A DNA stretch of 63,047 nucleotides, counting the filler, from Dugesia japonica (Eukaryota), in NCBI GenBank assembly GCA_001938525.1. It is 6 parts of 6 records of this genome, joined end to end, with 100 filler letters (N's around TTAATTAATTAA, not from the genome) between each part and the next. Parts side by side here need not be neighbours in the genome. Positions count along the whole stretch, not along the records: positions 34,465 to 44,693 come from MQRL01496605.1; 5 more parts are not named here. One strand, written 5' to 3'. The notes under the pieces were generated by a model. It was not told the origin of the DNA, ran no database searches, and saw only the letters and a list, made by a program, of their open reading frames with translations. Made by a program: the position numbers and the translations under genes. Below, piece after piece: positions 6,536 through 63,047 of the stretch (positions within the stretch are counted from its first letter, which is position 1; every line of letters begins with the position of its first letter).

Positions 6536-6539
6536 ATTT

Positions 6540-14864: not shown

Positions 14865-15178
14865 AGTGTCGTGTATGTGTCGATTTATCTATAAAAAGAG
14901 GTTCAAGAGGTATTCGTGCTAACTGATTCTCCCGCTTTTATAACTGTAGAAAAATTGCCAGGTTGAATTTTACAGAGCGCACCTAAAAGTGTGAGAGTAG
15001 AGTTTCCTCCCGGAACTAGCGACATCACTTTTTATATTTTATTTTTGGCCTTTTCGGTGGCAATTTGGGCTTCCCAGTTTCGTTTGGATAGCCAATACAG
15101 CTTCCAAGACATCTCTTGGTCATCGCTGTTGTCATTTTGTCGTTTGCGTGCAGATGTAATAAGGATAATAATATTTGA
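14865..15178 (-). pseudogene. Cassette ORF2 (copy A)
   Basis: EMSWKLYWLSKRNWEAQIA matches MSWDLYRLAKRKWEADTA of 58412-58754. Confidence 0.7.
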
Positions 15179-15202
15179 CTAAACACATAACATAAATGTC
15201 AA

Positions 15203-15367
15203 CTAATTAATTCTCAGCACCAGTGGATGTTTATCAAAATCCTCTACAAATGAAGGGCTGGGAAAAGCTGGGGGTTCTATGTAGGTTACCATTTGCATGA
15301 CCCAGTACCAATAATTATAACGCTCGAGGCTGTCCTCACAGAGGCGATGAATTCTATATCGAAGCAT
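15203..15367 (-). CDS. Cassette ORF (54 aa), likely an ORF4 paralog occupying the ORF3 slot
   Basis: MLRYRIHRLCEDSLERYNYWYWVMQMVTYIEPPAFPSPSFVEDFDKHPLVLRIN, with acceptor ttattttag ending at 15383. Confidence 0.6.
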   Translation of the reverse strand: MLRYRIHRLCEDSLERYNYWYWVMQMVTYIEPPAFPSPSFVEDFDKHPLVLRIN

Positions 15368-15458
15368 TCTAATAAAGTTAATCTAAAATAAATAAACTAA
15401 GCGACACATGGTTTAACATAACATGTTTATTATTGAGACATTAAAACAAAAAACTTAC

Positions 15459-15644
15459 TTAGTCATGACTTGGCGGCAATTCAAAGGTAAACATCTTGGT
15501 GAGACATGCTTGATCTGTCTCGCCTGGATATTCTACCTCGTTGGGGTATAATATATGGTTCACCAGCTGGTATAACCGTGCTAGTTCTCGCTCGTGTCGG
15601 ATGATATGAAAGATTAAGTGAAATGTTTCTAAAAGAAAATTCAT
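15459..15644 (-). CDS. Cassette ORF4 (copy A)
   Basis: RLYQLVNHIL...VEYPGETDQACLTKMF matches the HPDETDLxCF motif of the other copies. Confidence 0.75.
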   Translation of the reverse strand: MNFLLETFHLIFHIIRHERELARLYQLVNHILYPNEVEYPGETDQACLTKMFTFELPPSHD

Positions 15645-18185: not shown

Positions 18186-20540
18186 TGTTGGGATTCCATC
18201 TAAGCAGCTCAATTTTAATTAATAACTAGAGTAAAATGACCTAACAAAACCCCGCAAAGAATTTTATCTAGGATCCCAAATCTAGATTTTCGAAATAGAG
18301 CTAGTGACTCACAACCCGTAGTTTGAGTGCTTGCTCGTATTCTTTTGATTTGGGCCCTTCTAGCCATGAAACTCGGTTCTTTGCTTCCATCTTTATGATT
18401 ACCACTTTAGTAATATCAGTAATACCGTTGTCATAGTAGTAAATTAGTAATTTTAGTCCTATTTCTAACTATAGTTATAAATTATCCCAACAAATAAAAT
18501 CTACGCGATAAGAGTTAAAAGGTTTATTAAGATTCGTCTACAATACGAACTACATTAAGCAAAGCAACAACATTCAATCATACCAGTTCATCATACTGTT
18601 CATCATAACATGGCATAACAAGTATTTGTAAAGCACTACACGTTAATTATTTGAGTTATGGTTTTCTAGTTTTGGTTTATGGAATCTTCGTAATTTTTGC
18701 CATCATAATTTTCTTGTTTGACAATTTTCTGACGATGTAACGCCTTCGTTTTCTTCTGTTTTAACTTTCTCATAAAAATAATTACGATTTTCTAATAAAT
18801 CATTTTTATAATAAATAAATCATTTTTTATGATTTATTTTATTTTTTAATAAATTAATTATTTATTTTTTTTCTTAATTAATTTATTGATCAGATTCTTA
18901 TTTTCCATTCTAATCTAAATATTAAAATAATTTTAGCTTTTTTTCTCGCATCTAATTCATTTGATTTATTTCTCTGATGTTAATTATTAATTTAATTTAG
19001 CATATTTTATTCTTGTTAATAAATTACTTACAACTTCTTTGTATCCTCGTTCTGTTGTTTCCTTCATTCATTATCTGTTTTTCTGTTCTTATTTTCATTG
19101 TGCCTGGTTGATAATTTGAGTGTCTCTTTCTATTCTTGCTCTCTCCACCCCGTTTAATGATAGTTGTTCACCGTTGGTTTCACCTTGTATTCAGATAGTT
19201 CTTCAATTTCATCTTTGTCGTTATTATTATATTCTTGGGGTTACATCTTCTTTCCATTTCTGGGTCTACTCATATCTTTACTTTTAACTGTTCATTTTGA
19301 GGTGTTTTGTACCAATACTATTATTACAGTTCCTGTAACAAAATCAAAAGTTATTACGGATGATTATTTATTACTAATTAGTCACCCCTTGATGGTTTTT
19401 ACTATCAATAATCATTATTATAGATTATTATTAATCAATATCGTTATTAAAATTTACTAAAATTTTTAATTAATCATTTTAACTATTAGTTAATATTATT
19501 AACAAATTAACATTATCTGAATATTTAATCCAAAAACATAATTATTACTAATTTTTAAAATTACTATTAAAAAAAAGAAGTCATTTAATGAAAATTATAT
19601 TATTAATGGTTATCAAAATTTATCGATTACAGTATAATTTACAATTTAAGTAAACTAATCAAAACTAAAGTGAGCGGTATATCAATCTAAAACAAGCACC
19701 GAGTGTGATTAAAATCACCTTGGCAACCCAAATTAATTAATCTACCTTACCCTGATTACACACTAGCGTAGTCTAGGTTTCTCTTCGATTCAACGGCACA
19801 CTTACACGGTATATATGCTATCTATTACACGCACCTTCACATAATTTTTTACTTTATTATATTCCTCGAGCCCTCTATATCACATCCATTTTGGATCGAA
19901 AACAGTTTCAATAATTCTTTAATAAATCACCTTTTGCTCTTTAGTATCAATTTAAAAGTGAATTTATTTAATTGAAGTTTTTGCAAAGTTACAGCGGTAT
20001 GTATATAGGTTTTCTAATACTCCATCATTCTTCTTATTGGTTAATTGGTATCATTGGATTTTTCTAAAATTCTCATTTGCTGAATTATTCAAGACTTGTT
20101 ATATTGATCAAGACATCCAATCAATGTTTTGGAATTCGAAAACCCCTGTAACTTCCCTCTAAGTTGAGTCATGATTTCCTAGCTTGGCGTTTTGAAATCT
20201 ATGATGCTTTCGTGACCAAAGTTTTCTTATTCACTGCTTTTTCCTTATTGGGAAGTCTTCGTTTTCTTCTATTTTTGTTTTTCTTGTAAAATTAATTAAT
20301 TAGTTAAAATAAATCATTTTAAGTTGCATGATTTATTTAATATAACAAATTAATTGTTTATTTTTATTTTCATCTCAAATAATTTATTAATTAGAGTGCC
20401 ATTTTTTATTTCCAAGCTAAAATTTAATTTAATTTACACGTTTCTTTTCATAAAAAAACAATTTCATTTATTTCTTCTATCTTTAATAATTAATTTCATT
20501 CAATTTTCCATATTCTTCTTAATAAATTATTTGTTCTAAT
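18186..20540 (-). mobile_element. Giant LTR-like element, copy E (internally deleted or rearranged)
   Basis: Starts TGTTGGGATTCCATCTAAGC with the hairpin region. 19640-20080 is homologous to 48530-49020 (ORF5 family). Confidence 0.6.
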
Positions 20541-27792: not shown

Positions 27793-27834
27793 TTTTATTA
27801 GTTTGATACAAAATAACTAATGACATTATAAAAG

Positions 27835-28253
27835 TCAAGTCCCTTTGTTTGGTGCATTATTCTCGGATTCGCCCCCGTCAGCGATGTTTCTCAGATCCCA
27901 TAAAGTGTTATTTTTGTCACTGTATAATCTCGTGCTGGGTGGTACGTGCTCGACTGAGATAGAGATCACTGATGGACCTGAACGCCATTCACTAGTAGTC
28001 TCAATTTCCCCAGTATTTATATGCGGGAACGCGGTGATGGAATGATATACTTCTCGGGCCCGATCCGGGCTATTCCAAGTATAAAAAACCTGACGTTCGG
28101 CTTCGGCCCATTCCTGCTCGTTCTCAGCGTCCTCCTTTTCTAAATTCAAGTAATCTACTAGGACGCCCGCATTCCGATTGTAGGCATTCGTGTACTTCCT
28201 AAATATTGTGCGACCAGTGCGTTGGTCCAACAAAACTTCCTATTTGTGATTCA
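27835..28253 (-). pseudogene. Cassette ORF3 (copy B)
   Basis: ttctag|TG-NHK*EVLLDQRTGRTIFRKY...EDAENEQEWAEAERQVFY, homologous to 42972-43391. Confidence 0.85.
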
Positions 28254-28378
28254 CTAGAAAAATAAAATGGGTTTTTGTTCATAAAAAGAATTTAGCTAAT
28301 ATATTAATTAATTCTATAAGAAACTCGAACATAGGCTCAATAAGTTTATTATTTTATAAAACGTTAACGATACTACTT

Positions 28379-28564
28379 TCAGATTTCTGTGTCGATATCC
28401 ACCTGAAAATTCGGAGGAAACCTCTCAACGAAATAGCTAAGATCCGTTTCGTCAGGATGTTCGACTCTTCCGCGAGAAAAAATGCAGGCCAGCAGTTGTT
28501 TTCAACGATCAACTCGACGCTGCTTTCAGATGATCTGGAGGGAATTAATGAGCTCTGTTGTCAT
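28379..28564 (-). pseudogene. Cassette ORF4 (copy B)
   Basis: tttag|TA-ATG, then KQLLACIFSRGRVEHPDETDLSYFVERFP. Two internal stops. Confidence 0.8.
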
Positions 28565-29792
28565 TACTAAACGTATGAAAATTGATTATTAATAAGTAGT
28601 AGAATCACCCTATCACCTAGTGGGTAAAGATGTAAGTAAAAGTAGTTCTTATCAGCTGGAATCAATGTAAAAGGTTGGGTGAACTACATGCGCTGGCATA
28701 ATTTTATGTGATAGAAAATATAATTGTAGCTTTCGCTTATTAACTGAAGCAAACCCTCGTTATCAGTAGGGGATAAAAACCTTCTCGGTTATTCATTTAA
28801 AGCTGTATTTGGAACTGCTAACTACAACTATGCGCTAAACTTTATTGAATTATAAAATTATGATGAATAAAAAAATTTTTTTAATGACATTTAATAACAA
28901 AACAACTCAACTGAAATCTAATTACTCATATACCCTTTACTACCTGTGACAAAATCAGTAATAAGATAAAATCAAGTCTACATATATGGTGATTACGAAA
29001 ATACTCTTTTCTTGATGGTATAACGCTGTTGTTCTCTCAACCCACATTATCGTGTGAGTCACAGGATGAAATTATCGTTGATGTTGGCAGAGTGATTATT
29101 TTAAATCCAAATTTTCATGACTTCCAAATATCATCCGCATGAAGGCTGAATACCTAAGTCAAGTATGGAACTTCACTTTGTAAAAAAATCATATTAGATT
29201 GGTGCCTCCCTAAATTCTGTAGGTGTTATTTTACAGAATAGTGGCCATTGCTAGATACATAAAAGTGGTTGTTTTTTCTTCTTTTTTTGGTCGATAATTT
29301 ATTGATGAGACAAATAAAGATATTAGCTGATACTAGATAAGGTTTAATTCAATAGCATAATGACTGTGTCAGAGATTTCTGTTGATACATACATGTCTTG
29401 TGTGTATGTCACGTTATTTACCAATGAGGTCATTTATTGATTTATCATACCTTTGTGAAATGAGTGCAGTAGTCCTAATGGTTGTATTAGTTTATGTGGC
29501 AATACGTGTGGTGACTACTGGTTAAACAACGACTCTACCATACTAGATAATTTCATTCATTAATCCATAATCACATCAATGATGGCTAAAAATAGTAACA
29601 AGAATGAAATGGAATCTTTTAGTGACTAATGATTTCCGGTTTAAACCGAATGTTAGCAGTACTTAAACAGATCATAAATAAATATTAAATTAATGATTAA
29701 TGTCACACTTATTTTATTAATAATGTAGTAACTAGACTTCATTTGACAAGTATTTATTAAATAAGCAAAATTCATGATTACAAAACGAATTT

Positions 29793-30495
29793 TATAACAA
29801 AGACTGAATAATTACGATTTTCTGCAACGGGAACGAGTAAATAGGTCTATTTTCTTTATGACAAAATTCTGGATGATGGTTCACTAATATTTTTCTCGGG
29901 TTCACTTGACTATTTTGATCTGTAATAAGTTAACGTTAACAATCCACTGAATAAGAGACCAATGTTACTATGCCGAAATTATTCTTTGATCTATTCTACT
30001 AATTTGCCCAACAAAGTTTTTTCAAATAATTCACAGCGTTGATAGTAATAGAAAAGTTTTCTCTTCGATAGATCAATAAATTTCAGAGATGCTACAATAA
30101 TTCTCAGTCGCTTACAATTTATGAAAAATGTGTGCTGTTTTCTTCTAATTTTCATGGGGCTTATATAGTTTACCAGATACAACCCAACATTATTGCAATT
30201 GGGCTTCTTTTTTTGATTCAAAATTCTGGTCTTTCATTGGTTCCGGTGCTAATTTTTTTAGATTTTTCATAGATTTTTGGCTTCTATTGGTGACTATTTT
30301 TGGAGTGCCATGTGATGATCTGGTCTTAGTTTTATTTTCCTTTTCTGGCCCCTTGTTGGCCCATTTGTCTAACCCTTGTATGGACCTTCCTGATGGTGCT
30401 ACGATTTTCGGGTTGACAAATTCTATTGCCCCAGATCTTTCGCTTTCTAGATTTTTTTTACGAGTCACTGTAAGTATGTCGAGCGGAGATAATCA
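29793..30495 (-). pseudogene. Cassette ORF5 (copy B), basic ~230-aa protein
   Basis: tttttag|TG start, KENKTKTRSSHGTPKIVTN, and end PVAENRNYSVLL*. Homologous to 61115-61828 and 40260-40800. Confidence 0.65.
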
Positions 30496-30899
30496 CTAAA
30501 AACTGATTTTCGTTCAATTTCATTTTATTTTTTCGTCCAAATTAATTAATTTTTCTGTGAAAAATAATTATTTTCCAATAAAAATTTTTTTTGTCTTTTA
30601 TTATTAATTTGATAATTTTCTTTAATTACTGGTATGGTTGCTGGTTAATTTTTGTTCACTCAAGATCTCCATGTCCATCTTCTTTTTATTAGTTTTTGTT
30701 ATATTTTAACAATATTAGTTATTTAAAATTGCTTTTCTTTTCGACTTCTTTTACTGATTGATTATTATATTCTTTCAACTGCGTTTTCTTCCCAACCACC
30801 GTTTTCAATGTTTTATGATTTGGGCCCCTGGCCTTGATTTCTTCTTAACTGGGTGCTTCACCCCAACACTATCAAACCATTGAATAATCATACATTATT

Positions 30900-40259: not shown

Positions 40260-40800
40260 TTGGAGGCTTTAACTCTTTCGCCTAGAAAAATGAAACAAAG
40301 ACAGAAAAATCACAAAGTGCTCCAAAAATAGCCACCAATGGTGTAGCGGAAAATGTTAAAAAAATTTAGAATTTTAGACCAAGACCCAATGAGAAGCAAG
40401 AAATTCAAATTAAAAATAGACAGCCAATGCAGAAGGAGTGCAATCAAAAATGGTATAAAGCCCCCTTGATTTTAGTCGAAAAAATAATTTATTTCATAAA
40501 ACCTAAGTGTTAAAGATTTACTCATTAATTTCGAAATATCAAAGGAGAAATTCTACGACTCAGTAATTATTCAATTGGCTTATCTATTTATTACTTAAAA
40601 GCAAAATTTATCACGAGTGATCAAACGAAAAAATCGAAACTATAGTTAAATCGGAAATAACTATTTTCAATTAAAAGGAAAATATAGAAAAGAGTACAAC
40701 ACCCATTCCGTGCGAAACCTCCGTGACTAGAAGAAAAACGATAAATAAAGAAGAAAAACATAAACCCCGTTGTAGGAACCTAAATTTAAAATTACAAGTA
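40260..40800 (+). pseudogene. Cassette ORF5 homolog on the plus strand (belongs with copy C)
   Basis: ENETKTEKSQSAPKIATN and YKAPL...YFIN...FEISKEKFY, ending near CCCGTTGTAG like the other ORF5 copies. Confidence 0.6.
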
Positions 40801-41611
40801 AATTTTCATTTTAATCGTGTGTTAATGTCAGTTATTTATGATAGTAACATTCTGTAATCAATAATAAAGCATTAATGATTTCCAATTTAATTATTGTTAA
40901 TTTTACAAATCATAAATAAAGAGAAGTAGAATTAAAGTATTTGTTTTTTAGCAAAACATGAATTACCATATTAGCATATCCTTCTTTTGATGGTTTTGAA
41001 GCAGGAGAACAGACTAGTCATGATAAAAATATGGATTGCCTTTACGATAATAGATTTCCAATTCCCTTTTTGTCAATTCAGATAAATCCAGTTACCAATT
41101 GTCGTTTTCTTAGCAAATTATAACTCCATGCCGATTGCCAATAAATGATAAATGAGTAATAATTTAATTCCAATTTGTCAATTATTGATTGATCCAAAAC
41201 TCTCGAAAACGGGCAATCAAGCCGGATCGTCCTATAAAGCAATGAAATCTATACCTAGCTCTAATTTCCAGTAGTACATGCTCGAGATTTTTAGAAATTC
41301 TATATATTAACCAAAATCAACAACCATCCTCACTAACAGATGACTCACTACGCTAATTTACAACAATAAATAGTTAAGTTAACACAACATTTTGGCAAGT
41401 GATATGTGTGTTAATTAAAACATAATTATTAATAAAATATAATAATTTAAATTAATTTTTACATAAAAAATCAAAAAAATTAAAAACAAAGAAACGTATT
41501 AATCTTTAAAAATCATATAAATACTACTTATAAAACTTAAAACAGTGTAGTTATGTTAACACAACATTTTGGCATGTGATATGTTTGTTAATGTGACGCG
41601 TCAGCAACATA

Positions 41612-41765
41612 ACCTAACAGGCATGTATGTACTTACTCACATAGTTTAGATATCAACCTCACGGCAAGATGCATGGTCAATCATGTATGCCTATTTTTCT
41701 ACACACTAGGAAGATAAGTATCCTAGGAAACGAATGATGATAATTTGATTTTCAGGCCTCCAGTA
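41612..41765. repeat. Inverted repeat arm paired with 44540-44693
   Basis: About 154 bp, with 2 mismatches seen against the reverse complement of 44540-44693. Inner ends read CCTCCAG|TA. Confidence 0.92.
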
Positions 41766-41941
41766 CTACATGTGTCTAATTTTTACCAATAATCCAAATC
41801 ATCGTATTCATTTTTACTAGGGGAAGTTGTTACGATTGAAAGCATAAAATAAGAAGGACTATAATTTCGAATAGCTGACAGTTTAAACTCCTGCTGAATA
41901 ATATCATTATTATCGTCTCTCGTCATTACGACGTTTATTAA

Positions 41942-42261
41942 CTATATATATAGAAAACTAAATGCGGCTTCGTCGTCAAGATCGTGCCAACGGATCCACG
42001 CCTCATTCCCCAAACGCTGGTATAAATCCGTTATGTAGTGTTGTAAAAAATCAATTTTATGTTGCAGAATCTGCTTTGTTTGTTCGGCTAAGTCGCCCTG
42101 CTTCTTAACTAAAAGGTCGAGTATTTTAATCAGTCTGTTCCGTTGAGTTAAGTGTCTTAGGAGTGCCCTTTCATTTTGGCGTCTGATATGCCTTTCTAGT
42201 AATAATTTTTGAGTCATTAGATGACAACGACGTAAGCTATTTGGGAGTTGAATTCGTAGCA
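41942..42261 (-). CDS. Cassette ORF1 (copy C), intact
   Basis: ttttag|TG-LRIQLPNSLRRCH...ALLRHL...FLQHYITDL...W.DLDDEAAFSF, with AATAAA at 41934-41939. Confidence 0.85.
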
Positions 42262-42412
42262 CTAAAATGAAGAACAATAATTAAAATGGAGAATCTTTTG
42301 ATCCCGGTTAGTAATTAATTAGAAAAGAAAAACTTTGTCTCAACTAAAACGAAAACTAAATCAATATAATTTAAAATTGTGTTTATTTACAAAGACATCA
42401 AAAGATACAGAG

Positions 42413-42772
42413 TCATGGACGGGAGGTTTGCGTGCCTTTGTCGATCATTACCGGCTCAAGCGACATTTTCTGTTTAAGCTCTAAAACTTCGTTAACCAGT
42501 TTATTTTCACGGTCATGGGGGGACCGGATGATCTCGGTGAAGGATTCTATTTGTGCTTTTATATATCCTCTCTTGAGCATGAGAAGCTTCTACTTTTTTA
42601 CGGAAAGCTACACATTTCGCCTTATATCGCCTGACTTTAGTATTTGAAACAGCCACGTCAGCCTCCCATCGACGTTTTGCAAGGCGATACAGATCCCATG
42701 TTATTTCGAGATCTTCGCTAGATTCACGCACTTTTTTAGTGGGAGCAGCGGAACAATTTAAGGATGAATGCA
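42413..42772 (-). pseudogene. Cassette ORF2 (copy C), one frameshift
   Basis: ttctag|TG-HSSLN...TWDLYRLAKRRWEAD...KCVAFRKKVEASH / DRENKL...LEPVMIDKGT. Confidence 0.85.
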
Positions 42773-42971
42773 CTAGAAAATATGATGTAATTAATGGCAC
42801 GAAATTTAAAGACTAAATATTAATGCCGTTATTCACAGATTATTTTTTTATGGTGGCAAAATGTAAATATAAAGTAATTCGGAAAGATTTTTAATTCAAT
42901 CAAAATGCACAGAGAAAGTTTTTATTAAAAATATGTCATTGAAAAGACGCACAACTTCAACACAATATAGC

Positions 42972-43391
42972 TTAATTATCAGTAGTGGCGTTGGCATTCT
43001 CCGAATTTTCACTTTCTCCGCCATTACGCACAACCCAAAGATTGTTTTGCAAAAATGTCGTTAAACTTGAAAATGGAGGAAAACGATCGGTAGAGATGCT
43101 GATCATAGAATGGCTTTCTACCAAATCACTTCTAGTACTAATTTCCTCATTATGAATTGGAGGAAAAGCCGCGATAGAATGGTACACAGCTCGCTTCAAA
43201 TCAGGGCCGTTCATTTCATAAAACGTACGTCGCTCGGCTGCGTACCATTCTCTTTCCTCCTCGGCTTCCTTTGCCGGTAAGTTAGAATAATTAGTAGATA
43301 CCCTCGCATCTTGGTTATCGGGGTTTTTATACCTTTTAAAGACCGTTCGGTCGGTTCTCTGATCCATCAAGACTTCCCAATTATATTCCAT
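42972..43391 (-). CDS. Cassette ORF3 (copy C), intact 139 aa
   Basis: cctag|AA-ATG, then MEYNWEVLMDQRTDRTVFKRY...EAEEEREWYAAERRTFYE..GPD. Three homologs in the window. Confidence 0.85.
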   Translation of the reverse strand: MEYNWEVLMDQRTDRTVFKRYKNPDNQDARVSTNYSNLPAKEAEEEREWYAAERRTFYEMNGPDLKRAVYHSIAAFPPIHNEEISTRSDLVESHSMISISTDRFPPFSSLTTFLQNNLWVVRNGGESENSENANATTDN

Positions 43392-43507
43392 TTCTAGGAA
43401 ATTATAGTAAACGTTTATCTAGATTAGCGAGATCATAATAATAATATATTCCATTTCTAGGAAATTATAGTAAACGTTTATCTAGATTAGCGAGATCATA
43501 ATAATAA
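43382..43507. repeat. 63-bp tandem duplication covering the ORF3 acceptor and ATG
   Basis: tatattccatttctaggaaattatag...gatcataataataa occurs twice. Confidence 0.95.
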
Positions 43508-43582
43508 TAATTTAGTAAATATGTAAAATCCAGATAATTATAGAAAACACATTTATTAATAAATATGAAACAAAGGAACATG

Positions 43583-43774
43583 TCAGCTTTCTTGATCACG
43601 ATCTACTTGGTGAGATTTACACGGAGAAAAAAGTTCTGCAAAACAGAGGAGATCCAACTCATCCGGGTGTAAAATTAGAGACGGAGACAAGATGTGCCCT
43701 ATTAATTGTTTCTTCCGTGATCGTTCCCGTTCTTGTAGGATTAATATATGGGTTTGTATTAAAATGTCGGTCAT
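43583..43774 (-). CDS. Cassette ORF4 (copy C)
   Basis: MTDILIQ...KKQLIGHIL...HPDELDLLCFAELF. Start chosen by alignment with the other copies. Confidence 0.8.
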   Translation of the reverse strand: MTDILIQTHILILQERERSRKKQLIGHILSPSLILHPDELDLLCFAELFSPCKSHQVDRDQES

Positions 43775-44539
43775 GAGCAGGTTGTTTCCTAATTGATATA
43801 ATATTAAAATGAATTCTAAGAAGACTACATGGTTTGCAATCAGAACACCGGCTGCTGTAATCCCGCTGGTTTCCCCTTGCAATGCCAGCAAAAATACTTA
43901 GCTTAGGGCACCTGGTAATTGAATTTATCAGTCCAAATTATTGTATAAAATAATATCGTTAATTAGTGATTAGCCTATTAAAGATGCTAATTCCGAAGTT
44001 AACTACATTTACAAGGATAATAAGTTCAGTAATTATCAGGGTAGAACATTGGAATTGCACCTGCTTTTGGTCACTACTAAACAATAATAATATTAGTATG
44101 ATTAATAGAAAAAATAATATTGATATAGTATTCACAAATTAGGATATTGCTCATCAGATTAATAACGGCGGTGTTTATAAAGACATTACTAATTTGGTCA
44201 TTCCTAGGACTAAACTTACCATAATGACATCGCGTTAAGAACTACATATAATAGTGATTACAAGATTTATATCGACAAGGTTAGCAATATTAATACGGAT
44301 ATTCACAATAACAATAATAACAAGGATATTATTAATAATAATACTAGTAATGATAGTACCCGTAATAATAATAATAATAATTTTATTAACAATAATACCC
44401 ATAATAATAATTTTAAGAATAATAATAATTATTTATACGGATTGAACACAGAGGAACATAATAACAAATACATACATCGTCACAATAATAAAGGTAAGGT
44501 AAAACCTGTCACCATTCGCAATCGTAATCCATATATATA

Positions 44540-44693
44540 TACTGGAGGCCTGAAAATCAAATTATCATCATTCGTTTCCTAGGATACTTATCTTCCTAGT
44601 GTGTATAAAAATAGGCATGCATGATTGACCATGCATCTTGCCGTGAGGTTGATATCTAAACTATGTGAGTAAGTACATACATGCCTGTTAGGT
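44540..44693. repeat. Inverted repeat arm paired with 41612-41765
   Basis: See 41612-41765. It runs into the contig end. Confidence 0.92.
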
Positions 44694-47411: not shown

Positions 47412-47419
47412 AATAATAA

Positions 47420-49020
47420 TGTTGGGATTCCATCTAAGCAGTTCAATTTCTCAGCTTGTATCTGGGGTAACATGGCCTAGTAAAACCCCATAAAGAATTT
47501 AATCTGGTGTCCCGTTTCTAGATTTTCAGAATGGAGCCGTTAACTCGTAACTCATAGTTTGAGTGCATGTTCGCATTTCTTTTGTTCGGGTTCACACTCG
47601 CTCTGGTTTGGCAGACAACTTAGATATCAGTGTGAAGGTTATTGTGGGAAGTATATACTGGCATCTTGTTTCAAATATTATCATTGTTGGTATTATATTT
47701 CAAAATTAATNTAANATGGGNAATCGATAGATAATCTNCTAAGTTTGTCATGAATTCTTAATAATGCGAGTCAGGTAACTAATCGAGCCTTTAGTTCATA
47801 GTCCATTTTTATCCTTATTATTATTTTAATTAGCTTTTTTACTAACGTGGATTAGCACTAAAGTGACCATCCAGTTAGCGTTATTATCATGATTATCCTT
47901 ACTCTATTATATTTCATTACTTACTATCGCTACCCCTTACCATTATATCATATCGTCGTTAATCTGAATCATTAACTATTCATTGATTGCTTTTATTTGT
48001 AATTGTCATCACCAGACTATTATTATTCTAATTATTACGAATATTGTGTTTATCATTATGGTTATAGTCATTATTAAAGTTTGTCAAAAGTTTATACGGG
48101 TGAATAATTATTCTAAAGAAGCCTGACTTTCATTATTTTATTATTATTATTATCCCCTTGATTGACATCAATAGTCATTATTATTATTAGTATTATTATT
48201 ATTATTGTTGTCGTCTTTAACAAATCAGAAGTCACTAATTGAGGTTTATTTAATACTTTTCACTTTACTAGGAAAATGTATCTTTATTTTGCCATCAAAA
48301 ATCATTATTATAAATCATTAGGAACTGAAGTAATGAAACATTAGTTAAATATTACTATAATTGTTTATTACTAACAATTTTTTATCAATCGTTTTTATTA
48401 TTACTCAACATTATTAACATATTGCCATTATTCAAATTTTCCTAATCATTAAATTCATTACTGTTAAGCAGAAAAGAATTAATTATCGAAAATTATATTA
48501 ACATTTATCAATTACAGTACAAATTTGCTAATTTACATAATCTAAATAAAACTAACGTGAACTGCAGATCGGTCCGGAGCAAGAACGCTGCGCAATTGAA
48601 AATCACAGTGACAATCCGATTAATATTTATCTAAATCCGATTGAACACCATTACTGAAATCTATCTGTCCTTTTCAAACACTCGCGCAATAATAATTCAC
48701 TCTTATTCATTTGCACATCTACATGGTGTATCATAGATTTCATAATTATACACACTTTCATTGATTTTTTAAATTTCATTATTCTTGGGGCCTTTCCTAT
48801 CTCATTCACAGATTTCTGAGTCGAAACTGTTGCAATGGTTTTATTTTTATAAATCACCTTTTGCTCCTTAGTATGAATGTAAAATTGAATTATTTAATTC
48901 TATTTTTTGATTGATTTTTTCTGAGAATTTCAGTGGTATTTATATCAGTTTTCTGGTACACTCCCATTCTTTTTATTGGTTAATGGGTATCATTCGATTT
49001 TTCTATCGTTCCTATTTGCA
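47420..49020 (-). mobile_element. Giant LTR-like element, copy F (ORF1-4 deleted)
   Basis: TGTTGGGATTCCATCTAAGC plus hairpins, with segments homologous to 17270-17720 and 19640-20080. Confidence 0.65.
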
Positions 49021-49151
49021 AGAAACTAAAAATTCATGATTTATCGCATTGTGTAATAGACCATGTGTAATGTGTGTTGATTGTGTAATATTGAGGATTT
49101 TCGTAAACACTAAGATTCATCTGGAAAGTAACATAAACATCTTTAAAAAGC

Positions 49152-55495: not shown

Positions 55496-57889
55496 ATATT
55501 CATATATTCGAAAATTTTAATTTATTATTAAATCAAATTTCTTTTCAGTCAAAATTCAAAATTTAAAAGCAAATATTCGTTTTTAAAACTTTTTATCTAT
55601 AATTTAAATCATTTTTGAAATAAAAGATTTTTTAAAAAAATTATCACCAATCACACAAAAATTTCAACTTGCTTTTCAAAACATACTCACAGTATTATAA
55701 TATTATATGATGTCAGAACATTATAGGAAATCCGAATTGCAAAATTTAATAGTTATTCAAGTCATTGTTTTATATTAAATAAAAATATTACTTTAGAAAC
55801 CTTGTGCCGATTCAAATCGCAAATAAAATATTATGTTGACATCATCACATTAAATTCTGGTTTTTAGATCGCATTATATCCTATTAAATGTTATTAAAAA
55901 TTTCTTTTCGATAGGAAGTGAAAGCTTTATGTTTGTGTCATACTTTCATTATTCAAAGTATTCATTCAATACTATGATTCTTAATTACTCGTATAAGATT
56001 TTCATAAAATAATAAGAGTATATGCTATTTTAACTACAATCATTAAATTTATTAATAGTTATACAGCGATAGATATTTTTGAACGAATCATTTAATGAAA
56101 AATTAAATAATCAAATCAACCAATTCCATTAGAAAAAACCTTTAATAGATTTAAAAGGAATTCGTCTTAAAATACAGTATGAAATTAAAACATTAATAAT
56201 AAGAAGAGGTCATTTTGCGATCATAACCAGCAATATGAGTAAATTATTCAACTAAAATCATTTGAACTATCTGAGTATTCTAAAAATAAGCAATAATTGC
56301 TACTAATAAGCTATTGAATAAGTATTACTTGCTTGTCCCTTTGTTGGTCTAACTGATGAAAATATCAATGTCTTAATTTAATGTATTAAAAATATCTAGT
56401 TTAAGATTCTTATATTCAACGATGAAACCAATGTTTCCGTGAAAAAACAAATGTTTCCATTATAAAAGCCACATTTTCATGATAAAACCAGTATTTTCAC
56501 GATAAAAACCCTGTTTTCCATAAAACTTATATTTGCATAATAAAACCAGTATTTTCATGATAAACTCGATGTTTTAAATGATGAAACTATAACTTTAGCT
56601 ATTGAAACTAAAATTTTCAATGATGAGATCAATATTTCTAATTATAAGATCAGTATTTTGTATGTTGAACAATGTTTCAACAATATTCTTTAACAATGTA
56701 TTTCAATGTTGTGTATTTAAAATAAAAAAGAAACCTATAAAACAAAAGTGCAAGCAGGGTTGCCAATGAGCAAGCAAAGAAGTTGAAGTATAATATGATT
56801 ATTAAAATATACTGAAATATTTTTATTATTTTAAATATAATGCACTTTATACTTGGTCTCACTCAGTCTTATTGTCTTCCTTTATTAATATATGTCACTT
56901 TTTAAAGATTATTGATGTGAGGTCTATGAAAATATGAAGTAAAAATATGCATTAAGACACAATAGAAAATAGAGAAAATATAGCTAAATGTGGATAAATA
57001 GGAGTAAATCAGGCAAATACGAGTAAATGACTAAATTATGGCAAAATATGTTAAATCGTGTGACAAATAGTGTATAAATTAAACATACTAAATGACAATG
57101 TATAGAATAAATGCAGTATAATTAGTGACTAGATTTACTCTATTAAATATAGTCCAAACTCATATTTTCTAATTGTAAAATTTGAATTTTTTTATGATAA
57201 GTCCATTATTTTCTTGTAGTGAAACTTGTGTTTTCATTAACGAAACGGAATAATAATGTATAAATTATAGTCAAAAGATTGATTTTATTGATTGATAATT
57301 TGGTATTTAATGGAACAAGAAACCAATAAAAACCAAGGTGCACACAGAGTTGCCATAGAGCAAGCAAGGAACCAAGAATCAATCAAGGAGTCAAGAAGCA
57401 AGCAAAGATGAATGCAAATAGTGAAGGATTTAATTGAAGGGAATACCTATATTTAACAAGATAGAACTATTATGTTCATGTTGAAACCTATATTGATATC
57501 AAGTTGTAATGGACTTAATCCTTTGTCCAATAAAATAAACCATGAGTCATTATTATCATTTAAAACCTTTTATAAAAATATAAAGAAAATGTGGGTAAAT
57601 CCTGTAAAATATGAGAAAATCAGGCAAATTAGACCAACGTAGTGTTGGGGTCCCACCTGAGACGTGACAGTGACTGGGGAAGAACAGTCCTCAGGGGAAC
57701 CCTTTCAAGAATTTAATCCTACCGTCCCTGTGGTAGGTTTTCAGTTTACTGCGGTTGACCTTACCCTTGATGGAAGGTGCACGCCAATAAACCTTTAGTT
57801 TGGGTTCTATATACTTTCCATATTACTATTTAAGAGAATTAAACAATTTCTTACAATTCGAATTAAAATATTTATTATCAAAAGAACAT

Positions 57890-58262
57890 TTAAATCAGAT
57901 CTAAGGCGCCCAGATCTAACCATTGATCGGGGGTGGTGACCACAAAGTTAAATGCCGCAATATCGTCATTCTCATCCCACGGTGTGACGTTGGGATTGCC
58001 GATCTGATTGGACAGGCCAGCAATATATTGCTTCAAGAAATCTATCTTGCGTTGTAAAAGGAGTTTGTTTTAGTTTTAGTTTGAGTGGCGAAGTCAGCTT
58101 GCTTTTTCACTATTGTATTCAACCTCTTAATGAGCTTATCCCTCTGGCTTAAATGTCGAAGTAGAGCCTGGTTGGTTTTGCGTCTTACATGCCGGTCTAC
58201 TAACAAACGACGCATGATGCGGTGAAAACGGCGTAAACTGGTAGGAAATTGGATGCGAGGCA
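57890..58262 (-). pseudogene. Cassette ORF1 (copy D), one frameshift
   Basis: tttttag|TG-PRIQFPTSLRRFH...ALLRHL / KQYIAGL...PWDENDDIAAFNF. Confidence 0.85.
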
Positions 58263-58411
58263 CTAAAAATGAAAATTAACATCAATTCGAGAAAATTTCT
58301 TAATAGAAAAGTTTATACAAATACTGGCTACTATTAGAAGATTCAAAGAACAAAACAAGTCAAAATAGCAAATTTTATTAGCAAGGTGACCAATCAATGG
58401 CTTTGGGGTGT

Positions 58412-58754
58412 TCATGTGCCTTTATCCACCATCAAAGGTTCTAATGGCATAGTCACCTTTAGTTTGAGAATATCATTTATCAGTTTATTTTCGCGGTCTT
58501 GATAGGACCGGATCATTTTAGTCAAGGACTCTACCTGACATTTCCATACCCGCTCCTGTGTATGGGATGCCTCAACCTCCTTGCGAAACGCCACACACTT
58601 CTTCCTATAACGACTCACTTTACTACTGGCGTTGGCAGTGTCAGCTTCCCACTTACGCTTGGCTAATCGATACAAGTCCCATGACATCTCGCGATCTCAC
58701 TATCCTCGCGTATCTTTTTCGTAGGAGCCAAACTGCGATTCAAGGAGGAATGCA
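58412..58754 (-). pseudogene. Cassette ORF2 (copy D), 5' frameshift
   Basis: tttag|TG-HSSLN / MSWDLYRLAKRKWEAD...KCVAFRKEVEASH...LEPLMVDKGT. Confidence 0.85.
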
Positions 58755-58934
58755 CTAAATTTACATAATCAGATATTGAATTCCATACCTTAAAGGTGAA
58801 ACAAATATTTTTAATTAATTTAAAGAGCTCGTAGCAAATAGCCTATTATTACAGTAAACAAATTAAAGGAAAATGACAACGATGTATTCTCAGAACACAA
58901 AAACATATAACCCAACAAAGGCTGGATGACCAAT

Positions 58935-59338
58935 CAAGCTGAAGGTTCGGCATTCTCAACCGAACCACCACTTGCCTGGTTACGGAGCTACCATAAGTTA
59001 TTTCCAAGATCGATCGCGAAACTGGTACTTCGAGATAGATGACCAAGTGGAACTGGAAGCAAGGAAGGTCCGTCTTGCNAATGAGTACTAACATGATTAA
59101 TTAATGAGTCAACCATCGTGACTTGATGAAGGACTTCACGGCTACGATCAGGGCCTGCCCATTCATAGTAAGCCCGGCGCTCTGCGGCCGCCCATTCTCT
59201 CTCATTTTCTGCTTCTTCTGGTGCTAAATTAGAATAATCCACCATGATGCCGGCATTGCGGTCATGTGGATTACGATAACGTTTGAAAACAGTTCGTCTA
59301 GTATACCGATCCCACAATACTTCCCATTTAAAATCCAT
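58935..59338 (-). CDS. Cassette ORF3 (copy D)
   Basis: MDFKWEVLWDRYTRRTVFKRYRNP...EAENEREWAAAERRAYYEWAGPD...NNLW. The 3' end is uncertain. Confidence 0.8.
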
Positions 59339-59528
59339 TTTTAAGTTCTATAATAAATAGTGGATTAAGCAAGATCACAAAACAACAACAAAAGGAAATA
59401 GTGAAAAACACTTAATTAACATTCAATTTTTTATTCAAGATGAGTAAAGCACGAATTAACAAACGCAGTTAATTATTACGGCCATTTGATTAAATTCGCG
59501 TGACTGGGGACTTGATTTGGAGAGTGGG

Positions 59529-59711
59529 CTACTCTTCATCTATGTCCGCCTTATGTTCAAGGGGAAACATCTCAACGAAACACTGTAGGTCTGTTTCGTC
59601 GGGGTGTTCTATGGCTCCATGGGTCAAGTAGTGAGCAATTAACTGCTTGAGTCTAGCGGCTTGACGACGACGTTTAATCCACTTCAACATGCGGCGCAAC
59701 TTTGCTGGCAT
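59529..59711 (-). CDS. Cassette ORF4 (copy D), intact 60 aa
   Basis: gttttag|CCG-ATG, then RLKQLIAHYL...IEHPDETDLQCFVEMFP. Confidence 0.85.
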   Translation of the reverse strand: MPAKLRRMLKWIKRRRQAARLKQLIAHYLTHGAIEHPDETDLQCFVEMFPLEHKADIDEE

Positions 59712-61114
59712 CGGCTAAAACAGAAATTATTACGATATTTACACTAATATCTTATACTTGCTAAAACAAGGGAAGACATTATTATCTCAAACTGTAGCAG
59801 GGTTGATGTACTAAGATTTTACGCATTGGGCATATGAACGGCGTAGATATCGCGCAGTGTGACGAGTTTACTTCCTAATTGATGTGTAAGATATTGCCGT
59901 GAGTGTCTTGGACTAAAATTATACTTGGTCAAGTGTCAAACAACCTTTTACGGTTGGCATTAACCATGCCCAATGGTCTAATACTCAGTGAAATCCCCAT
60001 TATCTGTGTTATTAAAATAATTTTGGAATTCATTTTGCCGATCGTGGGGAGGGTTGTAACTATTTTACTGATAACGACAAACAATAAATTTAGTACCTTC
60101 ACGGGTGATAATACTGGTGATCGATGCTAAGTCCAGTAATAAGCATAAAATAGATATCCCAATAATAATGATAGTATTATCGCTATTCATAAGAATAAGC
60201 ATGATAAGAATTCTATAATCGAATTAATACTAGTGATAATAAAAAAAAATTTAATAATATTAGTGAGACGACGGATAAATTATAATACGGAGATAAGTGA
60301 TATCCACCTTACGAAATATGATCAATTTTATTTTCTCTAAAATAAAGCAAGTTATCGTGATCATTGCTGATGTCATCGTGTACTTTTCCATCACTAATTA
60401 CTTGTATGTGTGTCTGGACCTATTGTGAATTCGATCACGTTCCACACACATTATCAATGCATCACCAATAAGATGAGTTTTCCTTCCCTTTTCTGTGAGT
60501 AATCGATGCTCAGTAATTCGGTTAGTTTAGATAAGTTGTGCAGTGATATTGGTAATTTATTTCATATTTTTAGAAATTGGTTATTTGTCTTTAAACTTAG
60601 AGTTACAAATGTGATTACTGGTATCAATTACGGATAAATCTCAATCAGATCTGTCAACTTCATCCGCATCTCCTAATTGGCCTTAATCAATTAAGCTAGT
60701 AATTCTATGGAAATTTATTCGTTCAAGTGATATAATCTCCTTTTTTCGTGATGGATCTCTTTGTGGATTTTTATTCATAATACTATGCTCTGAAAAATAT
60801 GTTACTGTAATGTCGATATTTATGTGTCTTGATGAGATTAGGGTTTGATTTATCAGAAGGTATTAATTATTCTTAACAATCTGGATCGAATGGCAGGTTC
60901 TAGTAAGTAATGTCTATTGGTATAAGTGCATTTATGCTAAAAATAAATATTGTGCCATTCATCGTCTTTTTATTAATATTTCTCTTTTTATTATAAAATT
61001 TGAAATAATAATATCACATAATCTTACATAGCTAATTTAAAATATTAAATTATAATATGATAAATTTTATTAACACATATCGATTATTTCATACCCAATA
61101 ATAAAAATTAACGA

Positions 61115-61828
61115 TTACTTGAGAATGAATGGTAGGATTTCTGCAACGGTGGAACAACGGCTAATAGTCGAAAGCTTCTCTTTTTATATATTTTCACTGA
61201 GCTCGCCTTCTGAATTCGTGAAATTCATCTGCTTTAATTTGGAGGTTTAACTTCTGCAACTATTGTAAATGTGATGATATCAACTAGTGATTACCGTTTT
61301 CTTCTTCGCAAGGTTTATTAACTTGAGATAATTTTCGTTGTCGTAACTTATTCAACCGAGAGTTCGTTAAGCATAATTCTTGAGTTGAGATTTTTTCGTG
61401 TTAGTCGCGCAACTTGGTAAAATAAAAAATTTTTATTCGTTTTTTGACTTGAAAACTGGAGGTCCTTATATGTGGTTTTCTGGACACCCCAACTAAGTTC
61501 AGATTTGCCAGTATTTTTAGACCAGCTCCTTTTCAATTTTATTGGTNNNNNNNNNNNNNNNNNNNNNNNNNNNNNNNNNNNNNNNNNNNNNNNNNNTGGT
61601 GCCATGATTGGCAACTATTTTTAGAGCAGCACCTGACATCGATGTCTTTGTTTTATTTTTATTTTCTGGATGTTCATTGGCTGGTTTTTGGATTCCTTAC
61701 TGTACCCCTCTGGAAGGTGGTACGTTTTTCTTTTTTAAGATTCTAGTTGCACCGGCTTATTTTCTGTTCAATTTTTCTTGTTTGAACTTTTTCTGACGTC
61801 CTGGGCTGGAGTTATCGGTAAAAAACAT
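61115..61828 (-). pseudogene. Cassette ORF5 (copy D)
   Basis: attag|ATAAAAAT-ATG, KTKTSMSGAALKIVANH, and end TVAEILPFILK*. Confidence 0.65.
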
Positions 61829-63047
61829 ATTTTTATCTAATTTTGTTTATTTTTTGTTTGAAATTAATTAATTTTTCTACATTAATTAATNNNNNNNNNN
61901 NNNNNNNNNNNNNNNNATTATTTCTTTTATTTTATAATTTCTTTTTAATTTCTAATCGTAAACAACTTCCGTTTTTCATATCCTTTTTTGATTTTGTTAC
62001 GTTTTCTTTTTATGGCTGCTTCTGATACTTTATTTCCTTTTTTGCTGACTATTAGATTCGACGTTGCCTTATTTCATACTTTAGTGGGTGTTTTACCCCA
62101 ACAGTAGTGTAAATGAAGGCAAAGCTAGGTTAATAGGGTTAAAACAGGGGAAAACAATGTGAATAGGGTAAATTGTAGTAAATTACGGTAATCAGGGTAA
62201 AATAGGATAAAAACAGGTTTAAAATATAAAAGTTTATGAAGAATATGGTAAAATAAGATAAATTGGGCAAATTATTGAAAATTCTGGCAAAATTAGACAA
62301 AAACAAAGTTAAAAGAGAGAAATTAAAGAAGAAATATTTGAATTTTAAACCAATAAATGACTATAAAATATTATGAAAATCAAGTGACTCCTCCGAGGAA
62401 TAATAATATCTNTTTTTGATTCTCATTTANAAATAACCATTAAATAATAATTACATATTAATATAACAAAGTAATGACTAATATTTATTCAGATCTTATC
62501 ATTTACCCTTGAAATTCGATAAAATCTTCAATTATTTGTTTAAGGATTACAAACTTAAATTTTTCGCATAACCAAATTCTTTTCTATATTATTGTTATCA
62601 ACTTTTATTACACATTTAATATCTATTCCAAAACAATCATAGACTTTGCTCCAATATCTTTCTTGATTCCCATTTTGTGATAGTTTTTTTTAGATTTTTA
62701 AATTTACTTTCCAAAATGGTTTTTATAATTTCTAAAAAAATTAATTAATTAGTTAATTCAAATAAACCATACATTTCTTTTCAGTATATAGAAATTGATC
62801 GTCTTCAGAATCAACATACCAATTTTCATCATCTGATTTCTCTTCAAAATCGAAATATTCTCTTTCATCTTCGCTATTATAAGGCATTGATTCATTTTCC
62901 ATTAAATTTCTAATTTGTTCGCTCATTATTCTTATTTATCCTAATAATAATTCGATTTAGTTTTTAATTTCTGAAATCTAATATTATAAGTTTAATTGTT
63001 TAAATACAGTGTTTGCATGAAATGAAAAACTTTCAAATTTATTTAAA

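What the first reader, a model, noticed from the sequence alone, without database searches (positions are those of the whole stretch)
41934..43790. Acceptor-ORF-poly(A) repeating architecture, like a viral late transcription unit
Seen: almost every ORF is followed within about 100 nt by AATAAA on the coding strand (41934, 42382, 42921, 43552; 57871, 58374, 59430; 14386, 14838, 15426; 27794, 28345). A short AT-rich spacer and the next acceptor then follow. Inference: these are mutually exclusive terminal exons chosen by alternative polyadenylation and splicing, conceptually like the adenovirus major late unit. Internal poly(A) sites would truncate a sense genomic RNA, so the unit is probably antisense to the retroelement. 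Caveat: AATAAA is common in AT-rich DNA.
Basis: partly seen in the sequence, partly recalled or inferred. Interest (0 to 1): 0.75.

Follow-up and report, generated by a model that had tools for sequence, protein, structure and literature searches.

The report
Multi-gene cassette inside planarian transposon repeat
A flatworm mobile element of about 4.5 kb, probably the lone end-repeat of a giant retrotransposon, carries one promoter and a row of small genes, each with its own splice entry and poly(A) signal, which suggests it makes several proteins by picking one last exon at a time, a layout better known from viruses than from transposons.

Summary
AATAAA follows 12 of 13 homology-defined stops within 100 nt on the minus strand; shuffles give 2.1, and 0 of 5000 reach 12. 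The host is a dugesiid planarian. The cited spots are four old, diverged copies (A-D) of one element. Copy D (57643-62103) is whole: 9-bp inverted ends TGTTGGGGT, a 4-bp target duplication, no pol, most likely a giant solo LTR. A CCAAT/TATA promoter points into up to four modules (acceptor, small ORF, AATAAA) that evolved under protein-level selection. Coding conservation starts right at two of the acceptors, upstream of any in-exon ATG, and those exons begin with TG; a donor ending in A is kept in two copies, so splicing would build the start codon (A|TG). Alternative terminal exons on one leader is my best reading (0.55); an SL trans-spliced operon is the main rival. The 'antisense to the retroelement' claim is untested: no PBS, PPT or pol touches any copy. 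All copies are broken somewhere, no RNA data were available, and the proteins have one unnamed relative. One module ends in an LC8-type motif.

The parts
57643..62103 (-). Copy D, whole element of 4461 nt (77 N), probable giant solo LTR; 9-bp inverted ends TGTTGGGGT
57639..57642 (.). Target-site duplication GTAG, left copy (right copy 62104-62107)
61465..61680 (-). D promoter: three CCAAT (61680, 61611, 61545) and TATA-like CATATAAG (61472-61465)
61113..61149 (-). D leader motif CCGTTGCAG and candidate donor caA|GTAATC (GT at 61118)
59430..59715 (-). D module 1: acceptor 59715, 60-aa ORF 59711-59529, AATAAA 59435-59430
58810..59348 (-). D module 2: acceptor 59348, ORF from 59338 with an internal stop, end 58934; no AATAAA, ATTAAA at 58815
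58374..58755 (-). D module 3: acceptor 58755 followed by TG, frameshifted, helical; AATAAA 58379-58374
57871..58263 (-). D module 4: acceptor 58263 followed by TG, frameshifted, leucine heptads; AATAAA 57876-57871
40266..40479 (+). C promoter: CCAAT at 40335, 40386, 40424 and TATAAA at 40454; lies on +, inverted relative to the C cassette
40767..40803 (+). C leader motif CCGTTGTAG and candidate donor caA|GTAAAT (GT at 40798)
41612..41765 (+). Arm 1 of a 154-bp inverted duplication (2 mismatches) that marks the inversion in C
44540..44693 (-). Arm 2 of the inverted duplication, ending at an assembly gap
43552..43789 (-). C module 1: acceptor 43789, 63-aa ORF 43774-43583, AATAAA 43557-43552
42921..43394 (-). 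C module 2: acceptor 43394, open 139-aa ORF 43391-42972, AATAAA 42926-42921
42382..42773 (-). C module 3: acceptor 42773 followed by TG, one frameshift, ends in DKGTQT (LC8-type motif at 42442); AATAAA 42387-42382
41934..42262 (-). C module 4: acceptor 42262 followed by TG, 105 open codons, one long helix with leucine heptads; AATAAA 41939-41934
14152..15644 (-). Copy A: element end at 14152; module 1 (15644-15459, AATAAA 15426), decayed module 2, module 3 remnant (stop 14863, AATAAA 14838), module 4 (acceptor 14746, AATAAA 14386); upstream part runs into a gap at 16099
27794..30868 (-). Copy B: element end at 30868, CCAAT x3 (30290, 30240, 30202), TATA 30167, motif 29830, module 1 (acceptor 28567, AATAAA 28345), module 2 (acceptor 28254, AATAAA 27794); modules 3, 4 and the other end are missing
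18186..20100 (-). Copy E, related family: same terminal 200 nt and a CCAAT x3/TATA promoter, but different, decayed interior with no protein match to modules 1-4
47420..49030 (-). Copy F, relative of E: same terminus, CCAAT/TATA promoter, decayed interior

Best explanation
The units are decayed copies of an integrase-inserted element of about 4.5 kb, most likely solo LTRs of a giant planarian Ty3/Gypsy retrotransposon (solo LTR inferred, about 0.75). Each held its own small-gene cassette. A CCAAT/TATA Pol II promoter about 630 nt from one end makes one pre-mRNA. A non-coding leader ends at a shared donor (caA|GTAA) about 350 nt on. That donor splices to one of several downstream acceptors, and the AATAAA behind the chosen exon ends the message, so each mRNA is leader plus one terminal exon and encodes one 60-140 aa protein. 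For exons with no ATG of their own (modules 3 and 4, and B module 2), the leader's last A joins the exon's first TG and makes the start codon. The proteins are soluble, non-enzymatic accessory factors, probably nuclear or cytoskeletal adaptors: module 3 a helical protein that may bind the LC8 dimerisation hub, module 4 a leucine-zipper helix. Shown: signals, ends, target duplication, past coding selection. Inferred: splicing pattern, split start codon, solo-LTR origin, protein roles. Orientation to gag-pol is open: sense about 0.45, antisense 0.35, no genomic RNA at all 0.2.
For: AATAAA after 12 of 13 stops. Ends TGTTGGGGT..ACCCCAACA with GTAG duplicated fit the LTR integrase signal TGTTRNR..YNYAACA (PMC3601003); D has no long TIR and no internal repeat pair. 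CCAAT then TATA about 30 nt apart, pointing into the cassette, in 5 of 5 copies with that region. CCGTTGYAG occurs 3 times in the window, once each in the B, C and D leaders; C and D have caA|GTAA 31 nt after it. Synonymous sites are saturated (pS 0.72-0.92) while pN is 0.29-0.43 over 5 copy pairs, 390 codons for C vs D. Third-position bias begins at the acceptor (6/7/22, P 0.0003). 6 of 6 exons with no ATG within 15 nt start with TG and 0 of 5 with their own ATG do; TG follows TTYAG in 30 of 351 window sites. No conserved donor inside modules. A split start codon has precedent in springer-clade env (bioRxiv 10.1101/2023.08.03.551782). DKxTxT-type pattern 'DK.T.T' occurs 3 times in 126,090 six-frame residues, each at the end of module 3.
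Against: No RNA data. Every copy has stops, frameshifts or truncation. The donor is seen in 2 of 3 copies; in B the exon would end in C. C and D each keep upstream ATGs in the putative leader. The 6 TG exons come from only three modules, so they are not independent. Module 3 has an internal Met in A and D (not C) that could start a shorter protein. The AATAAA-to-acceptor gap of 87-163 nt also matches flatworm SL operons. No pol, PBS or PPT is linked, so the LTR label rests on ends and size alone. The region between donor and module 1 (about 1.2-2.5 kb) shows acceptors but no shared protein. The LC8 motif is intact only in C, and many TQT peptides do not bind (PMC6607443).
Confidence: 0.55

Rival explanations
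1. SL trans-spliced operon. One promoter makes a polycistronic pre-mRNA; each cistron is cut and polyadenylated at its AATAAA and the next gains a spliced leader at the acceptor about 100 nt on. All proteins are then made together rather than one per transcript.
For: Trans-splicing is described in S. mediterranea; S. mansoni operons have a median intercistronic gap of 99 bp (PMC12582326) and Macrostomum a peak near 100 bp (PMC8629364). Here AATAAA to acceptor is 87-163 nt and T-rich. Modules 1 and 2 mostly carry their own ATG 2-14 nt after the acceptor. The same paper reports that acceptors are often shared by cis- and trans-splicing, so both could occur.
Against: Flatworm leaders end in AUG, which would read the exon in phase 0. 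Modules 3 and 4 are conserved in phase 1 from the acceptor on; phase 0 gives only 1-20 codons in those 5 exons. A candidate cis donor with the right last base exists in C and D.
Confidence: 0.2
2. Same cassette logic, but the leader is a short coding exon that gives all modules a common N-terminal peptide, or the true donor lies elsewhere, for example outside the LTR in the full element.
For: 9 of 11 module starts are in phase 1, as a shared coding exon would require. Env of several insect ERVs is spliced to a short upstream peptide.
Against: Both D modules 1 and 2 are in phase 0 with their own ATG. The phase-1 frame upstream of the C donor is open for only 7 codons. A coding leader does not explain why ATG-less exons begin with TG.
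Confidence: 0.12
3. The element is not a solo LTR but a complete non-autonomous DNA transposon (Ginger1-like) or other integrase cargo with short inverted ends, carrying the same cassette. The question of sense or antisense to a genomic RNA then falls away.
For: TG..CA ends and a 4-bp TSD are also Ginger1 features (PMC6839031). All 6 ends seen are outer ends with no PBS or PPT.
Against: The inverted ends are only 9 bp, like LTR att sites; GingerRoot TIRs are 100-150 bp and Ginger1 TIRs are tens to hundreds of bp (recalled). Planarian LTR elements are over 90% Gypsy (bioRxiv 10.64898/2025.12.11.693146), and Burro LTRs must be several kb by subtraction. This rival concerns the carrier and is compatible with either RNA model.
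Confidence: 0.2
4. Chance: AATAAA and TTTTAG are just common in AT-rich spacers between GC-richer ORF remnants.
For: The window is 27.6% GC, with 197-214 AATAAA per strand. Single-copy tests for B and D are not significant against the AT-matched rate.
Against: 0 of 5000 shuffles reach the observed count; AATAAA outranks every other hexamer; the reverse hexamer is found within 100 nt after only 5 of 13 stops.
Confidence: 0.03

Closest known systems
Burro/GYPSM1 giant Gypsy elements of dugesiid planarians (PMC6431247, section 7 read)
   Same: Same host family (netrin-1 exon 80% identical to S. mediterranea); multi-kb LTRs by subtraction; fondness for accessory ORFs.
   Different: Burro's extras described there are domains of the polyprotein or an upstream internal ORF; no ORFs inside the LTR are mentioned. 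No sequence link to Burro was testable.
Adenovirus major late transcription unit (PMC11304566, passages)
   Same: One promoter, a non-coding leader, many 3' coding exons chosen by alternative splicing and polyadenylation.
   Different: Analogy only. MLTU has a tripartite leader, five poly(A) families with over 20 splice variants and encodes virion proteins; here it is one acceptor per poly(A) site, small non-structural proteins and no homology.
MDG1/412 group sORF1 and sORF2 (PMC11952523, passages)
   Same: Small accessory ORFs near the 5' end of a Gypsy-type element with an alternative poly(A) site between them.
   Different: Two ORFs, outside the LTR, unspliced; sORF2 is a membrane protein. 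The modules here have acceptors and no hydrophobic segment (max 19-residue hydropathy 1.07 over 13 pieces).
springer-clade insect ERV env (bioRxiv 10.1101/2023.08.03.551782, passage)
   Same: Start codon completed by splicing.
   Different: AU|G for one env gene; here A|TG inferred for several alternative exons.
Antisense accessory ORFs of plant Grande, RIRE2 and Retand (PMC7264820, parts 1-2 of 3 read)
   Same: Conserved orphan ORFs with their own promoter in a Gypsy element; the model for the antisense reading.
   Different: They lie between pol and the 3' LTR, not inside the repeat, and no array of poly(A)-terminated exons is described.
Flatworm SL-resolved operons (PMC12582326, PMC8629364, passages)
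   Same: ORF, poly(A) signal, about 100 nt, acceptor, ORF.
   Different: Host genes; the leader's AUG is in the wrong phase for modules 3 and 4.
Drosophila lola, mod(mdg4), broad, fruitless (recalled, no call)
   Same: Common 5' part spliced to one of many terminal exons.
   Different: Cellular genes with a shared coding BTB domain and paralogous zinc-finger exons; here the modules show no similarity to one another.

Membership tests
Ty3/Gypsy solo LTR | TG..CA ends with a short inverted att signal | tested here: met
   D: TGTTGGGGT at both ends; consensus TGTTRNR..YNYAACA
Ty3/Gypsy solo LTR | 4-6 bp target-site duplication | tested here: met
   GTAG both sides of D; 1 of 6 copies has both ends, so only one could be tested
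Ty3/Gypsy solo LTR | Pol II promoter, then AATAAA, in order between the att signals | tested here: met
   On the ORF strand: CCAAT/TATA about 630 nt in, last AATAAA about 235 nt from the far end in A and D
Ty3/Gypsy solo LTR | Occurs as paired direct repeats around gag-pol with PBS and PPT | not testable with these tools
   No PBS or PPT at 6 of 6 ends in the window; no eukaryotic genome collection available
Burro/GYPSM1 | Sequence match to Burro LTR, or linkage to the giant BIR/BCL2/env polyprotein | not testable with these tools
   No Repbase or planarian assembly; Grohme 2018 not held; no such domain among 37 window ORFs scanned
Ginger1 DNA transposon | TG..CA ends and 4-bp TSD | tested here: met
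Ginger1 DNA transposon | Long terminal inverted repeats | tested here: not met
   9 bp only; expected length recalled
Ginger1 DNA transposon | Integrase-like transposase inside the element | tested here: not met
   No integrase family hit in the module ORFs scanned
Adenovirus-type major late unit | Homologous virion genes and tripartite leader | tested here: not met
   No family, structure or phage-record hit for the modules tested; works like it, is not a member
Alternative terminal exon array | Acceptor and poly(A) signal for each exon, no internal donor | tested here: met
Alternative terminal exon array | mRNAs joining one leader to each exon, with 3' ends between ORFs | not testable with these tools
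   needs RNA data
SL trans-spliced operon | About 100 nt between poly(A) site and next acceptor | tested here: met
   87-163 nt from AATAAA in 7 of 7 junctions
SL trans-spliced operon | Each cistron translatable from the leader AUG or its own ATG | tested here: not met
   Modules 3 and 4 conserved in phase 1 from the acceptor; phase 0 closes after 1-20 codons
SL trans-spliced operon | SL-capped transcripts | not testable with these tools
   needs RNA data
Penelope-like/Terminon element | Hammerhead ribozyme in the repeats; RT or GIY-YIG gene | tested here: not met
   0 Rfam matches at E<=1 in the window; no RT in the ORFs scanned
Polinton/Maverick | AG..CT ends and 6-bp TSD | tested here: not met
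   TG..CA and 4 bp
LC8/DYNLL partner (module 3) | TQT anchor with K/R at -3 and D at -4 | tested here: inconclusive
   Exact in C, altered in A and D; preferences from PMC6607443; binding untested

The most novel reading that the evidence does not exclude
Planarian giant retrotransposons carry a whole accessory-gene expression unit inside the LTR: one promoter and leader, at least four exchangeable terminal exons (families E/F hold a different set), and a start codon that exists only after splicing to the element's own leader. Every solo LTR left behind by recombination would then be a self-contained, host-processed multi-protein expression cassette, able to supply virus-like accessory proteins such as an LC8 adaptor long after gag-pol is gone.
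Probability: 0.4. Interest if true: 0.8.

Novelty: new variant of a known kind. Interest (0 to 1): 0.62.

Why it matters
Accessory ORFs of LTR elements are usually one or two genes outside the LTR. An array of terminal exons inside the repeat would be a new way for a retrotransposon to code many proteins, and it would make solo LTRs, normally read as dead promoters, into protein sources. With six related copies in 63 kb the family must be abundant, so these orphan proteins may be hiding in planarian transcriptomes as 'lineage-specific genes', and may matter for the tissue-specific Gypsy expression seen on PIWI knockdown (PMC8532177, passages). It also gives a compact natural test of how splice-site choice and poly(A) choice are coupled, and of how cis- and trans-splicing compete at one acceptor in an animal that has both. 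If the cassette is sense to the genome, the element must read through four poly(A) signals, a sharp mechanistic question.

Tried and rejected
Homolog searches: module 2 alignment, 0 hits among 237 candidates; module 4 alignment, 0 among 79; HMMER over 1.84 billion representatives gave 1 hit for module 2, P0001, 94 aa, unnamed, on a 512-nt contig. Modules 1 and 3 were not searched in these sets (cap). Pfam: no module ORF reached a curated cut-off among 37 ORFs or 4 alignment members. PHROGs on 12 proteins gave only weak coiled-coil-type hits, E 0.002-0.09. PDB sequences: best E 0.36. Phage records: no match. Prokaryotic genomes: 70 pattern matches, none confirmed. Atlas: no usable hit for module 2; module 4 stayed unchecked. 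Folding: module 2 pLDDT 41, unusable; module 4 pLDDT 85 but one plain helix, 0 BFVD matches. Hammerhead/Penelope idea rejected: 0 Rfam hits. Terminal hairpins are modest (z -3.1 to +0.2 on mononucleotide shuffles) and not alike across A, D, E, F. Orienting by strand bias of AATAAA failed: ORF strand vs opposite 13/8, 7/5, 6/9, 6/2. No shared proteins in the region between donor and module 1, nor in E/F. The bacterial promoter scan is not applicable. I first took 15629 as the A module 1 acceptor; alignment suggests the orthologous site is lost, so it was dropped from the 11 starts. bZIP and J-domain likenesses for modules 4 and 1 were considered by eye from recalled motifs and not supported. 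Twin priming could explain the geometry of the C inversion and would imply an antisense RNA, but an assembly join of two haplotypes is simpler (2 mismatches, arm ends at a gap, same pattern at 1-3460), so I give it no weight. Literature: searches listed no paper describing such a cassette in an LTR; Grohme 2018 and its supplements and Repbase could not be seen and may annotate these repeats.
Full report
Setting. The window is AT-rich eukaryotic DNA (27.6% GC) in short contigs. An ORF at 35901-36329 is 80% identical over 143 aa to the C-terminus of Schmidtea mediterranea netrin 1, so the host is a dugesiid planarian, probably not S. mediterranea itself (inference). The rest is mostly decayed repeats.

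The observation. All 12 cited positions are AATAAA on the minus strand. Six-frame self-comparison shows four homologous ORF sets, A (14.4-15.6 kb), B (27.8-28.6), C (41.9-43.8, the finding) and D (57.9-59.7), built from the same four modules in the same order. With ends defined by homology, 12 of 13 stops have AATAAA within 100 nt; shuffles give 2.1 and 0 of 5000 reach 12; 25 of 111 other ORFs have it; it is the top hexamer. Single-copy tests are significant for A, C and D by shuffle, weaker against an AT-matched rate. One remnant (A module 2) was not counted and has no signal. The next acceptor follows 87-163 nt after AATAAA in 7 of 7 intact junctions, through T-rich sequence. The ORFs were real genes: synonymous sites are saturated (pS 0.72-0.92) while pN is 0.29-0.43. 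All copies are now broken somewhere.

What carries it. Copy D runs 57643-62103, begins and ends with the 9-bp inverted repeat TGTTGGGGT and is flanked by GTAG on both sides. A shares its low end, B its high end; two more elements, E and F, share the terminal 200 nt and the promoter layout but not the proteins. These ends match the LTR integrase signal (PMC3601003, passages). D has no long TIR, no internal repeat pair and no enzyme gene, so a giant solo LTR is the best fit; planarian Burro elements have 25 kb interiors and exceed 30 kb in total (PMC6431247, section 7). A Ginger1-like carrier has the same ends and TSD length (PMC6839031, passages) but should have long TIRs. None of the 6 ends has a PBS or PPT, so LTR status and orientation are not shown. 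In C the promoter half lies on + (40.3-41.8 kb) and the cassette on -, with a 154-bp inverted duplication whose outer arm ends at a gap; this is probably a mis-join of two haplotypes.

How it most likely works. CCAAT boxes and a TATA box about 30 nt on point into the cassette in B, C, D, E and F. About 320 nt further, the motif CCGTTGYAG occurs in B, C and D and nowhere else in the window, and C and D have caA|GTAA 31 nt after it. Modules lack conserved donors and end in stop plus AATAAA, so they are last exons. The key test is where coding starts. In modules 3 and 4 of C vs D, the 32 codons right after the acceptor, upstream of any in-exon ATG, differ 6/7/22 at codon positions 1/2/3 (P 0.0003), in phase 1. 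So they are translated from an upstream start. All 6 exons without a near ATG begin with TG, none of the 5 with one does, and TG follows TTYAG in only 30 of 351 sites. The candidate donor ends in A. Hence the inference that splicing builds A|TG; in B module 2 the TG sits exactly where C, D and P0001 have Met1. A split start codon is known for springer-clade env (bioRxiv 10.1101/2023.08.03.551782, one passage). Limits: only three modules give the TG pattern, the donor is altered in B, leaders hold some upstream ATGs, and module 3 has an internal Met in A and D.

Rival. Flatworm operons are resolved by SL trans-splicing across gaps of about 100 nt (PMC12582326 and PMC8629364, passages), which matches the spacing. 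But the leader ends in AUG, phase 0, which closes after 1-20 codons in modules 3 and 4. A mix is possible, above all for modules 1 and 2.

Orientation. On the ORF strand the order att, CCAAT/TATA, AATAAA, about 235 nt, att is the canonical LTR order, which would put the cassette in a very long R or U5, sense to the genome. In the other orientation it would lie antisense in a long U3, which is easier for reverse transcription (inference from general knowledge) and has plant analogies (PMC7264820, parts 1-2), but no conserved TATA or AATAAA was found on that strand. Internal poly(A) sites do not force the antisense reading: 412/MDG1 elements make both a short RNA ending after sORF1 and a full-length one (PMC11952523, passages). 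I leave it open.

The proteins. None has a family, fold or named relative; module 2 has one unnamed 94-aa relative at E 1.7e-17. None is hydrophobic enough for a membrane helix. Module 4 folds as one long helix with L-x6-L-x6-L kept in A, C and D. Module 3 ends in DKGTQT in C, the only [KR]xTQT in 126,090 six-frame residues, with DKSTHT in A and a stop inside the motif in D; D at -4, K at -3 and TQT fit LC8 preferences, though many TQT peptides do not bind (PMC6607443, passages). A basic KKVR/KKIR patch near its start may be a nuclear signal (recalled motif). These look like virus-style accessory adaptors; that is inference.

Comparison and verdict. It works like the adenovirus late unit (PMC11304566, passages) but is no relative. 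Each ingredient is known; an array of terminal exons with a shared leader inside a TG..CA-bounded repeat was not in the listings of searches or 78. Grohme 2018, its supplements and Repbase were not visible and might already annotate the repeat. Other papers seen as passages only: PMC11410931, PMC8532177, bioRxiv 10.64898/2025.12.11.693146, PMC5408684. Verdict: real feature, new variant of a known kind, interest 0.62; RNA model 0.55, unproven without transcripts.

Noticed in passing
window 800-10400 and 23645-23965: Decayed Polinton/Maverick-like genes: endonuclease VII domain (E 1e-8), TBP-like ORF (E 3e-14), weak A32-like ATPase pieces; the Polinton label is my inference.
   Followed up: partly
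window 1-230 and 3231-3460: Second near-identical inverted duplication about 3 kb apart with one arm at a sequence edge, same pattern as in copy C; suggests a recurrent assembly artefact.
   Followed up: no
window 25500-26930 (+): Broken Gypsy-like integrase (HHCC and core by eye) followed by a purine tract near 26457-26469, then a protease-like piece at 26648-26929 in the wrong order; no link to the cassette elements found.
   Followed up: partly
window 27391-27831: Small inverted-repeat element (arms 27391-27496 and 27726-27831) that begins right at the B module 2 AATAAA and replaces the rest of B; holds a 72-bp copy of 26646-26717.
   Followed up: partly
window 14148-14151, 18182-18185, 47416-47419, 57639-57642, 30869-30872: The 4 bases next to the element ends read TTAT, CTAT, ATAA, GTAG, CTAT: T-A in the middle in all 5 sites, often in AAT/TAG microsatellite, hinting at an NTAN target preference.
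   Followed up: partly
window 18400-19340 (-): Copy E holds at least one acceptor (19333), a charged decayed ORF and AATAAA at 19011 and 18528: same layout, different cargo.
   Followed up: partly
window 17249-17673 and 47665-48059: An F-like segment lies just outside the end of E, so E may sit in an older relative.
   Followed up: no
window 43393-43518: Perfect tandem duplication of about 63 bp that duplicates the module 2 acceptor and ATG in copy C.
   Followed up: partly
window 45180-45266 (+): A clean host-type exon (TTTTCAG ... GTAAGT) with no match to netrin 1; gene unknown.
   Followed up: no
window 31668-31856 (+): Mariner-like transposase C-terminal remnant, recognised from a recalled motif; no Pfam hit.
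   Followed up: no
window 10820-11150 and 7534-7634: Dense repeats of ATGACTCAT/ATGAGTCAT (AP-1-like sites, recalled) within the Polinton-like region.
   Followed up: no
many gaps, e.g. 44740-44751: Assembly gaps carry a TTAATTAATTAA linker between N runs, so order across them is uncertain.
   Followed up: no
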